DNA of 64,000 nt from Mytilus trossulus (taxonomy: Eukaryota). The stretch spans positions 5,704,001 to 5,768,000 of the forward strand of contig NC_086380.1 of assembly GCF_036588685.1 (NCBI RefSeq). The letters are read 5' to 3'. The position numbers and the translations under genes are program-made. Position 1 is the stretch's first letter. Each line of letters begins with the position of its first letter. Shown here piece after piece: positions 25,301-28,300 of the stretch. The notes under the pieces were generated by a model. The model was given only the letters and a program-made list of their open reading frames with translations, made no database searches and was not told where the DNA came from.

Positions 25301-28300
25301 CCTATAGAACATTAGTAATTCACTGACTACTTAAATTTCTGGTTTCCTATCAAACAAAATCCACAAAAATTGGTATCTCACATATAACAACGAATCCACA
25401 GTAGGTTGATTTTTAACAAGAATGCACTATATGTTGTGCTAAGCAGACTACCAATAGTATATCAATGTAATGGATAACAGGAACTAGGTTTCTGTCAGGT
25501 CTGATAATTATAAAAAATTGACAACTCATTACTGCAAATAATTTTTTATAAAAGCCATAAGGAATGATACTTTCAGAAAATATATTCATTTCTTATGACA
25601 AAATCAATTATGATATAAATGAAGGTTTAACCTCATTTTTCAACAGCTTTTTGATGTATAACCTTGAGCAATTAACTGACAAACTGAAAAGAAGCCATTC
25701 TGTTATGTTTAGTTTGTGATTCAACGGCCCAGTTTACACATTAGTATCCTCTAAAAAAATGTGTTTAATCCTATTAATTCTCAATCCGAACTGTTACTAT
25801 ATTTTTCTTTCAATTTCATCTTTCTTGGAATCAGGATTCAATTCATTTGTATGGCTTTAACCTTTTAAGCGATTATCATTTTTTAAATGTCAATAAAACA
25901 ATACATATTTGAGATATCATAGGTTTATTATTTACCATCTTGGGTAGGGAGTATTCTATCAGTATATATATAAGACAGGACCATCTGTAAAGCTATATGA
26001 TCAGCATCGGGGAGGTAGATTGTTATTGGCTCGGTTGACAGAATGTCTTCTTGACTTCTCTGAAATATTCAAATTGAAATTAAATGTAAAAAAAAAATCT
26101 CTATATTTGGTACAAAAATTTTTATACATATACTTTTATCATCTTCATAAAAAGTTGCAAACAAATCAACATGACTTGAACTGAAGTTATAAATGCAAAA
26201 AGTCATCTATAGATAAGTGAGCTGTAAGGTGCAACATCATCAAGATAACAAAAGGTAACTCGTCATTGACTAATACCACTACATGTATCAATAGCAGAAC
26301 AAATGTTACGGGAGAAACATAAACAACCTATTAGTTTTCTCGTTTGAAATGATTTACATTTGTCATTTCAGGCTCTTTTACTGATGACTATGCAGTATGG
26401 TATTTGCTCATTGCTGAAGGCTGAACATTGACCACTAGTTGTGTCATTTGGTCTCTTGTACAGAAATGTCTAATTTGCAATCATACCACATCCTCTTTTC
26501 ATATGTTGTAAATCCATGCTTAATTATATCTTAATACTTAAGCATGAATACCAAAATGTTTATTTCTCCTTTTATTCCGATCAGCACATTTTTTTAAATT
26601 TCATCCTTTACCTGTTCCTTGGCATTTCTGATTTTTTCCTCTAGCCATGATGACCTGGCTGCTACCACAGAAATATGGGCTTTGATCTCAACATTGTCCT
26701 AAAATATACAACCAAGACAATGTCAGATTAATTTTCATACAATCCAAAATTAATCAATCAGAAAATGTTAACTTTAATGTCAACATTGTCTGCAAACATT
26801 TATATTCAACCATAAAATATGTAAGCTTTAAAAAAAATTAATTATTCTGAATTTTTCTACTGTAGCTATTCATGTTTTTAACATTTTCTTAAAAGTTGAA
26901 AACGTTCAATAAACCCAAGATGAGGTTATTTTGTTATAATTTTTTAAATACAAACCAAAAATGTTCCACAAATCATTTTAAATGCAATTGTGCATGATAC
27001 TTTCTGAAATATGAAACTTAATTTTTAAGTAAATATTACATATAAAAAAAGTTACCTTGCCAACCATGAATATTAGGTCACAAAACTGTTGATTCTTCAA
27101 CAACTTTCCATAATCTTCATGCAATGTGCATTTGGGATATCTAGAAAACTAAATAAGGCAAAATATAACAATGAATATTAGCTTAATAACAAGATACATG
27201 TTCCTACAAAAAAATTACTAGAAAACTGAAGTTGATTGAAGACTAACTAGTAAAATTATCTGGTAAAGATACACTCAAATTGTAGGTTCCAGTATGACCT
27301 TCAACAATGAGAATGTATTTTAAATTTTATTTCTTTCAACATTGTTTCAACCAGTTCTTTTTAAAATAAAATATTCTCTTTATCTGTAATTTAAACAATA
27401 ATGGATACATTCTTACGTTTTACTGTTATACCACTGTCCCAGGTTAGGGGGAGGGTTGGGATCCCGCTAACATGTTTAACCCTGCCACATTATTTACATA
27501 AATAAGGCCGTTATTTTTCTCATTTGAATTGTTTTACATTGTCTTATGTCTTTATTGCGGTATGAGCTTTGCTCATTGTTGAAGGCCGTATGGTGACCTA
27601 TAATTGTTAATGTTTGTGTCATTTTGGTCTTATGTGGGTAGTTGTCTCATTGGCAATCATACCACATCTTCTTTTTTATATACAATCATATTACAATATC
27701 TTACTTGAAACCTATACATCTCTCCACTTCTGACAATGTTATCTACTGTACCACCAAATATATACATGGCATCACCAACAACTGAGGCAGCATGGAACAG
27801 TCGACCAGTAGGAACCTACAATAAACAGGATAAATACAGAAACTACTGAGGCAGCATGGAACAGTCGACCAGTAGGAACCTACAATAAACAGGATAAATA
27901 CAGAAACTACTGAGGCAGCATGGAACAGTCGACCAGTAGGAACCTACAATAAACAGGATAAATACAGAAACTACTGAGGCAGCATGGAACAGTCGACCAG
28001 TAGGAACCTACAATAAACAGGATAAATACAGAAACTACTGAGGCAGCATGGAACAGTCGACCAGTAGGAACCTACAATAAACATGATAAATACAGAAACC
28101 ACTGAGGCAGCATGGAACAGTCGACCAGTAGGAACCTACAATAAACAGGATAAATACAGAAATTATTGTATTGTGGATTCATTTATTTTAGTGAGAATCA
28201 ATTTTTATGGATTGTGATATAGTTGAATTTTCAAACATTCATGGTTTTGACAATTTCAAGACACAAGGTTTGACACAATTATTCTTTATTGAACAAATGA

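What the first reader, a model, noticed from the sequence alone, without database searches (positions are those of the whole stretch)
27705..28162. LZTR1 splice acceptor amplified six times; five decoy acceptors all lead to premature stops
Seen in sequence: on the - strand each 64-bp unit is 29 nt of intron end (agtttctgtatttatcctgtttattgtag) plus the first 35 nt of coding exon 10 ([11 protein letters not shown]). This gives near-identical acceptors at 28135, 28071, 28007, 27943, 27879 and 27815. By manual translation only 27815 gives the intact Kelch repeat. The other five end in stops, including the frame-preserving +192 choice (TAG in its third unit). Every acceptor reads AG|GT, so splicing exon 9 (ending CAG) to an upstream copy would regenerate a weak donor, CAG|GTTCCT. 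Inference: the allele is either partly lost to NMD with copy number tuning LZTR1 dose, or rescued by exon definition or recursive re-splicing. It would be a natural test of the tandem-duplication model of splice-site gain. From my recollection of the human protein, a long insertion sits in this same loop.
Basis: partly seen in the sequence, partly recalled or inferred. Interest (0 to 1): 0.7.

Follow-up and report, generated by a model that had tools for sequence, protein, structure and literature searches.

The report
Splice-acceptor "mirage" repeat in mussel LZTR1
In a mussel's LZTR1 gene (a brake on RAS signalling) the end of one intron and the start of the next exon are copied six times in a row, a new example of the "mirage" repeats known from lancelets; the last copy is likely the one mostly used, so the allele is likely near harmless, but no RNA from an animal carrying it was seen.

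Summary
In detail: 6.0 copies of a 64-base unit (29 intron + 35 exon bases, 98% alike) at 27777-28162. Acceptor 27815 gives a 764-residue LZTR1 identical to a named Mytilus protein; the other five, joined to the normal donor, stop at 346-377 residues. It is not an assembly error: one DNA run holds the whole head-to-tail cycle at about 5-6 times one haplotype's depth. Three runs of other organisms show one acceptor, so the array is young and probably on one haplotype. It is a 'mirage' minisatellite, described in amphioxus with the same build, six copies and the same intron-gain idea (PMC3087553); human CBS 844ins68 is the two-copy acceptor case. Which acceptor this allele uses was not tested: the three RNA contigs join exons 9-10-11 normally but come from other alleles. 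Recursive splicing is poorly supported (the regenerated donor scores below 19 of 20 real donors), and nothing supports dose tuning. A leaky allele stays possible because copy 1 keeps the best intron context. The scan noted such arrays before on other DNA, several in this genome (unchecked notes). Ordinary; low interest.

The parts
27777..28162 (-). Tandem array, 6.0 x 64 bases, spanning the intron 9 / exon 10 boundary of LZTR1
   Evidence: only one such locus in the genome (1 candidate, 6 matches, all here)
28101..28164 (-). Unit 1, acceptor at 28135; keeps the native upstream intron (AG-free zone over 68 bases, CACTAA at -53)
28037..28100 (-). Unit 2, acceptor at 28071; two differences from units 3-6
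27845..28036 (-). Units 3-5, identical, acceptors at 28007, 27943, 27879
27781..27844 (-). Unit 6, acceptor at 27815, the only one that runs on into the full exon
27705..27815 (-). Coding exon 10 (111 bases, last Kelch repeat; donor CAA|GTAAGA)
   Evidence: RNA contigs of X19, X21, X24 cover exactly this exon
29017..29071 (-). Coding exon 9 (55 bases, donor CAG|GTATGG, phase 0)
   Evidence: loose ends of 3 RNA contigs match its end at 28-29 of 30 bases
27056..27148 (-). Coding exon 11
   Evidence: loose ends of 3 RNA contigs match its start at 28-29 of 30 bases
28168..28260 (.). End of a dispersed repeat with many copies in the genome, 6 bases from the array's upstream edge; it supplies the CACTAA in front of unit 1
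19352..37109 (-). Whole LZTR1 coding span, 21 coding exons, 764 residues (Kelch propeller, BTB, BACK)

Best explanation
A 64-base piece across the intron 9 / exon 10 boundary of mussel LZTR1 stands in six tandem copies, likely made by one recent local duplication and then multiplied by slippage or unequal crossing-over, likely on one haplotype only, and the spliceosome likely uses mostly the last acceptor (27815), so that the five spare copies would leave with the intron and the allele would be near neutral. Shown: the array, its presence in one run's data, single acceptors in relatives, and that only 27815 gives the conserved protein. Inferred: exon definition pairs the exon-10 donor with the nearest acceptor, giving a 111-base exon (the gene's coding exons are 54-179 bases; the other choices give 175-431); any transcripts from spare acceptors carry early stops and would be removed by nonsense-mediated decay, with the second haplotype as a buffer.
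For: Build matches amphioxus mirages: BflGb6 has the 3' end of an intron plus the 5' part of the next exon in 6 and 3 copies on two haplotypes, and RT-PCR suggested regular splicing (PMC3087553 section 16; PMC3902484 passage). Human CBS 844ins68 duplicates an acceptor at 68 bases and the downstream one is strongly favoured (PMC2630376 and PMC1802585 passages). The window's protein through 27815 is intact and identical to P0125. Real and young: run X1 holds a 94-base contig, exactly the 64 31-letter words of one full cycle, 0 differences, depth 89.1 against 14-17 for the window's haplotype and 19-23 for a second one; expected 85 for six plus one, 173 for six on both, 20 for one on both. No protein with the repeat's read-through: 0 of 1 candidate, 0 of the fetched proteins. 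4 of 5 spare acceptors would make an exon longer than any in the gene.
Against: No RNA from an animal with the array was seen: the 3 RNA contigs differ from the window at 7 of 113 bases and share substitutions with the single-acceptor runs. All six acceptors score alike (12.7-12.8 bits), and unit 1 has the better upstream context, while units 2-6 have exon-derived, 54% G+C sequence at -30 to -64 and an AG 25-28 bases before the acceptor. In CBS the downstream choice depends on G runs between the sites; this array has no run of three G. Some human donor-side arrays do use spare sites (IFI 6-16, CBS intron 13; PMC1557585 introduction). The 27879 choice gives 175 bases, within the gene's range. 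Contig depth is a rough measure, and X1 may be the sample the window came from.
Confidence: 0.62

Rival explanations
1. Leaky or null allele: the spliceosome often takes an upstream acceptor (most likely 28135, which keeps the native intron, or 27879), the transcript gets an early stop and is degraded or makes a Kelch-only fragment without BTB; the allele survives because it is young, rare and covered by the other haplotype.
For: Equal acceptor scores and better context at unit 1; no G runs as in CBS; depth fits one haplotype; absent from 3 of 3 other organisms; all five stops lie over 1100 bases before the last junction.
Against: Published acceptor-side cases splice normally. The CACTAA in front of unit 1 lies in a dispersed repeat, so it need not be the working branch point; the AG-free zone of units 2-6 (25-28) is within the range of the gene's 19 other acceptors (18-71).
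Confidence: 0.26
2. Nascent new exon: a spare acceptor pairs with a cryptic donor in the unit (best ATT|GTAGGT at +61), giving an in-frame 60-base mini-exon and a new 68-260-base intron, adding 20 residues before the last Kelch repeat.
For: The +61 site scores 5.4 bits, above 96% of 778 intronic GTs and close to the weakest ordinary donors (5.5); the mini-exon is in frame and stop-free from units 1-4. The route is published for a potato gene (PMC4974935) and proposed for mirages.
Against: It scores below 19 of 20 real donors and overlaps the next acceptor; the loop has the same length in 107 of 109 scored proteins; no such protein was found. The scoring matrix rests on only 20 donors.
Confidence: 0.04
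3. Selected rheostat: copy number is kept variable to tune LZTR1 dose through decay.
For: None direct; only that each spare acceptor leads to a stop, which a 64-base unit with a TAG gives by construction.
Against: Absent from relatives, near-identical copies, edge overlap within chance, no sign of conservation.
Confidence: 0.03
4. Recursive splicing: exon 9 joins an upstream copy, the rebuilt CAG|GTTCCT serves as donor and a second step reaches 27815.
For: The AG|GT junction is there and scores above 92% of intronic GTs, mostly from its CAG.
Against: 4.3 bits, below 19 of 20 donors; the same junction arises in all normal transcripts and is not re-cut in 3 of 3 RNA contigs; suppression of re-splicing by the exon junction complex is recalled, not from a call.
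Confidence: 0.03
5. Assembly artefact.
For: No laid contig spans the whole array, and X1 has no contig over exon 10.
Against: Full head-to-tail cycle in X1 at raised depth, cut at 27813, in register with the point where the assembled array leaves its period; unit-specific differences.
Confidence: 0.02

Closest known systems
'Mirage' minisatellites of amphioxus (globin BflGb6, Adh3, troponin C, PGBD5; PMC3087553 section 16, PMC3902484 passage)
   Same: Tandem copies of an intron end plus the start of the next exon; AG kept in the copies; six units on one haplotype (BflGb6: 6 and 3); end units differ from inner units; unit length within the 10-160 range; proposed as a road to intron gain.
   Different: A mussel, not a lancelet; copies younger (98% alike against 81-100%); other alleles seen have one unit, so length variation among multi-copy alleles is not shown; splicing of this allele not tested.
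Human CBS 844ins68 (PMC2630376 and PMC1802585 passages; the primary paper was not held)
   Same: Duplicated 3' splice site at nearly the same spacing (68 against 64), upstream choice would shift the frame, polymorphic.
   Different: Two sites, not six; downstream choice shown and tied to G runs, which are lacking here.
Human F7 intron-7 37-base repeat, and IFI 6-16, CBS intron 13, LMNB2, PDGF junction minisatellites (PMC1557585 abstract and introduction)
   Same: Splice site repeated 5-25 times by a minisatellite whose end unit spans the exon edge; the copy next to the exon is used most.
   Different: Donor side; some show use of the nearest spare sites.
Intron gain by tandem duplication across an intron-exon boundary, potato RdRp (PMC4974935, parts 1-2 of 5)
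   Same: Duplication across an acceptor; a cryptic donor could turn the upstream copy into an exon.
   Different: There a GTAAG donor is used and reads show the new intron; here candidates are weak and no read shows one.

Membership tests
Mirage minisatellite | Head-to-tail repeats whose unit spans an intron-exon boundary of the host gene | tested here: met
Mirage minisatellite | Spare copies keep the splice dinucleotide and lie in the adjoining intron | tested here: met
   6 of 6 units keep TAG|GT; five lie in intron 9 of the model
Mirage minisatellite | Copy number differs between haplotypes | tested here: inconclusive
   One acceptor in contigs of X2, X6, X9 (other organisms); depth in X1 fits six plus one but no contig shows the second haplotype at this place
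Mirage minisatellite | Regular splicing is not disturbed | not testable with these tools
   3 of 3 RNA contigs are normal but come from other alleles; only contigs were offered
LZTR1 | Kelch propeller followed by BTB and BACK, orthologous sequence | tested here: met
CBS 844ins68-type distal selection | G runs between the duplicated acceptors | tested here: not met
   no run of three or more G in the array (feature)
Recursive splice site | AG|GT junction that rebuilds a strong donor | tested here: not met
   4.3 bits, below 19 of 20 donors; the need for a strong rebuilt donor is recalled
Recursive splice site | Intermediates or lariats in nascent RNA | not testable with these tools
   no raw RNA reads offered
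Intron gain by tandem duplication | A new intron removed from mature RNA of the duplicated allele | not testable with these tools
   no RNA from a carrier; no matching protein

The most novel reading that the evidence does not exclude
This very young array is a mirage caught before it is tolerated: the allele splices partly to spare acceptors, and the overlapping ATT|GTAGGT donor turns a spare unit into an in-frame 60-base exon, so a heterozygous mussel would show a new exon and intron being born beside the ancestral allele, with LZTR1 output falling as copies are added.
Probability: 0.06. Interest if true: 0.55.

Novelty: new member of a known kind. Interest (0 to 1): 0.15.

Why it matters
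Little on its own. It extends mirage repeats to a mussel gene (no paper with Mytilus, minisatellite, intron, exon, splice site and polymorphism together; both papers are on amphioxus; subscription journals are mostly not searched). Because the copies are nearly identical and a one-acceptor allele seems to sit on the other haplotype, it is a handy natural test of how an invertebrate chooses among equal acceptors, a choice that the amphioxus papers checked only by RT-PCR.

Tried and rejected
Assembly error: rejected. A second LZTR1 copy or haplotig: 1 candidate only. Other duplicated edges in this gene: 1 of 40 edges has a 24-of-24 copy in its intron, the other 39 reach at most 17 of 24. RNA structure as the selector: predicted openness of the last 25 intron bases is 0.51-0.71 for all six and the AG is paired in all (0.01-0.12), so no useful difference. 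Cryptic donors at +11, +34, +37, +43 score -3.6 to 0.6 bits, no better than ordinary intronic GTs. Protein search with the repeat's read-through found nothing, which the tool calls weak evidence. The first read-laying was swamped by dispersed repeats and its joint tables were cut, so the upstream letters of the X2, X6, X9 contigs were not seen. X1 has no contig over exon 10; a hole proves nothing. Laid: 4 of 18 DNA runs and 3 of 6 RNA runs listed. One search used a wrong exon-11 start (27140); one search uses 27148 and replaces it. Two paper searches for the human LZTR1 loop gave nothing usable; the solved chain 9mey aligns without a gap there, which neither shows nor excludes an insertion in the natural human protein. 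The primary CBS papers were not held. Look-up of earlier notes by sequence gave one unrelated hit. No supplements were read.

Full report
What is there. On the - strand a 64-base unit stands 6.0 times at 27777-28162 with 98% matches and no indels. Each unit is 29 bases of intron end and 35 bases of exon start, with acceptors at 28135, 28071, 28007, 27943, 27879 and 27815; units 3-6 are identical, unit 2 differs at two places and unit 1 at its second base. The exon's 37 residues match the solved LZTR1 Kelch domain best (9mey, E 1e-29). A neighbouring exon found 120 proteins, with a Mytilus LZTR1 at 100%. A 21-exon model through 27815 gives 764 residues with no mismatch to P0125, which its source names Mytilus trossulus LZTR1, and 5-11 mismatches to three other Mytilus proteins of the same length. 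The locus is single in the genome.

What the spare acceptors would do. Joined to the normal exon-10 donor, they give exons of 431, 367, 303, 239 and 175 bases and stops after 365, 365, 365, 377 and 346 residues, all over 1100 bases before the last junction and before the BTB part. That these would be degraded is inferred from general knowledge of nonsense-mediated decay, not tested in mussels here. Four GT positions in the unit give in-frame mini-exons; on a matrix from the gene's 20 donors three are no better than ordinary intronic GTs, and one (+61, ATT|GTAGGT) reaches 5.4 bits, just under the weakest ordinary donors. It would add 20 residues from units 1-4. The matrix is small and the scores are rough.

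Is it real, and how old? Of 24 runs listed, all as contigs, 4 of 18 DNA runs and 3 of 6 RNA runs were laid. X1 carries the window's haplotype letter for letter in four intronic pieces (depth 14-17) and a second, divergent one (19-23). It also holds a 94-base contig on the array with no difference, which is exactly one full cycle of 64 words of 31 letters and so contains the exon-to-intron junction that only a tandem copy has; its depth is 89.1. With a mean word count of 4.77 in the assembled array, the expectation is 73.5 for this haplotype alone, 85 with a single copy on the other, 173 for six on both and 20 for one on both. Depth of contigs is a crude guide and X1 may be the source of the window, so this speaks against an assembly error but says nothing on frequency. 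X2's match ends at 27842, where unit 6 departs from the native intron. So the array is young and probably on one haplotype.

Which acceptor is used? Not shown. RNA contigs of X19, X21 and X24 (three studies) cover exon 10 exactly, with loose ends that match exon 9 and exon 11. This confirms the gene model, but they differ from the window at 7 of 113 bases and share substitutions with the single-acceptor runs, so they do not test the array allele. The named protein P0125 uses the 27815-type junction, but a gene model is not allele-specific RNA. A search with the read-through peptide found nothing, nor do the fetched proteins hold it. From the sequence: all six acceptors score alike; unit 1 keeps a long AG-free zone and a CACTAA at -53, while units 2-6 have exon-derived sequence upstream and an AG-free zone of 25-28, within the gene's range of 18-71. 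The CACTAA lies in a dispersed repeat that ends 6 bases from the array, so the working branch point may well lie in the copied part (inference). Exon length favours 27815: the gene's coding exons are 54-179 bases. Folding does not separate the copies.

Recursive splicing and dose tuning. The rebuilt CAG|GTTCCT scores 4.3 bits, below 19 of 20 donors. It forms in every normal transcript too and is not re-cut in the three RNA contigs. For tuning of dose there is no evidence: no conservation, and an edge overlap within chance (10% per seed, 1 of 5 arrays in the gene, 1 of 40 edges). The loop where extra residues would go has the same length in 107 of 109 scored proteins, 7 of 116 not scored; the human insertion is recalled only.

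What is known. Amphioxus 'mirages' are tandem copies of intron-exon boundaries; BflGb6 has the intron end plus exon start in 6 and 3 copies on two haplotypes, RT-PCR suggested regular splicing, and the authors propose them as a road to intron gain (PMC3087553, passages and section 16). A second paper says the same of Adh, troponin C and PGBD5 (PMC3902484, one passage). Human CBS 844ins68 duplicates an acceptor and the downstream site is strongly favoured (PMC2630376, passages), helped by G runs (PMC1802585, passage) that this array lacks. Donor-side arrays are reviewed in PMC1557585 (abstract and introduction), some with use of spare sites. A potato gene shows a real intron gain from such a duplication (PMC4974935, parts 1-2 of 5). 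The word 'mirage' came to me from earlier notes of this scan, which list such arrays in at least five other genomes, and eight more in this genome; I checked the papers, not those loci.

Verdict. A real, young mirage minisatellite in mussel LZTR1: a new member of a known kind. Most likely the last acceptor is used and the allele is near neutral (0.62); a leaky allele covered by the other haplotype is the main rival (0.26). Interest 0.15.

Noticed in passing
P0123: The protein named Mytilus coruscus LZTR1 (846 residues) has the end of coding exon 16 twice and ends in a short tandem peptide repeat: possibly another exon-edge duplication in the same gene, or a gene-model error.
   Followed up: no
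window 27780 and the unit junctions (28100, 28036, 27972, 27908, 27844): Base +36 is T in the coding copy, A in the junctions after units 2-5 and G after unit 1; X6, X9, X19, X21, X24 have A at this third codon position, X2 has T. The junction may come from an older allele with a two-base microhomology, or from one later change.
   Followed up: partly
window 28168-28260: The end of a genome-wide dispersed repeat lies 6 bases from the array's upstream edge; four more copies in the window. Whether its insertion triggered the duplication is open.
   Followed up: partly
window 26684-26941 and 28826-29062: Run X1 holds two very different haplotypes in LZTR1 introns (21 substitutions and 10 gap letters over 266 bases in one piece).
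   Followed up: no
window 50139-51137, - strand: A 333-residue open frame without a Pfam match; it looks like the first frame of a LINE-type retroelement (recalled resemblance, not tested).
   Followed up: no
window 9101-9421 (+) and 53602-53952 (+): Exons of a protein kinase and of a cytochrome P450 flank LZTR1.
   Followed up: no
window 20707-20759, 22628-22689, 23204-23513, 29873-30340: Four further tandem repeats inside LZTR1 introns; none touches an exon edge.
   Followed up: yes
window 46682-47104, - strand: A 141-residue open stretch that resembles the end of a retroelement reverse-transcriptase frame (recalled; no Pfam match).
   Followed up: no
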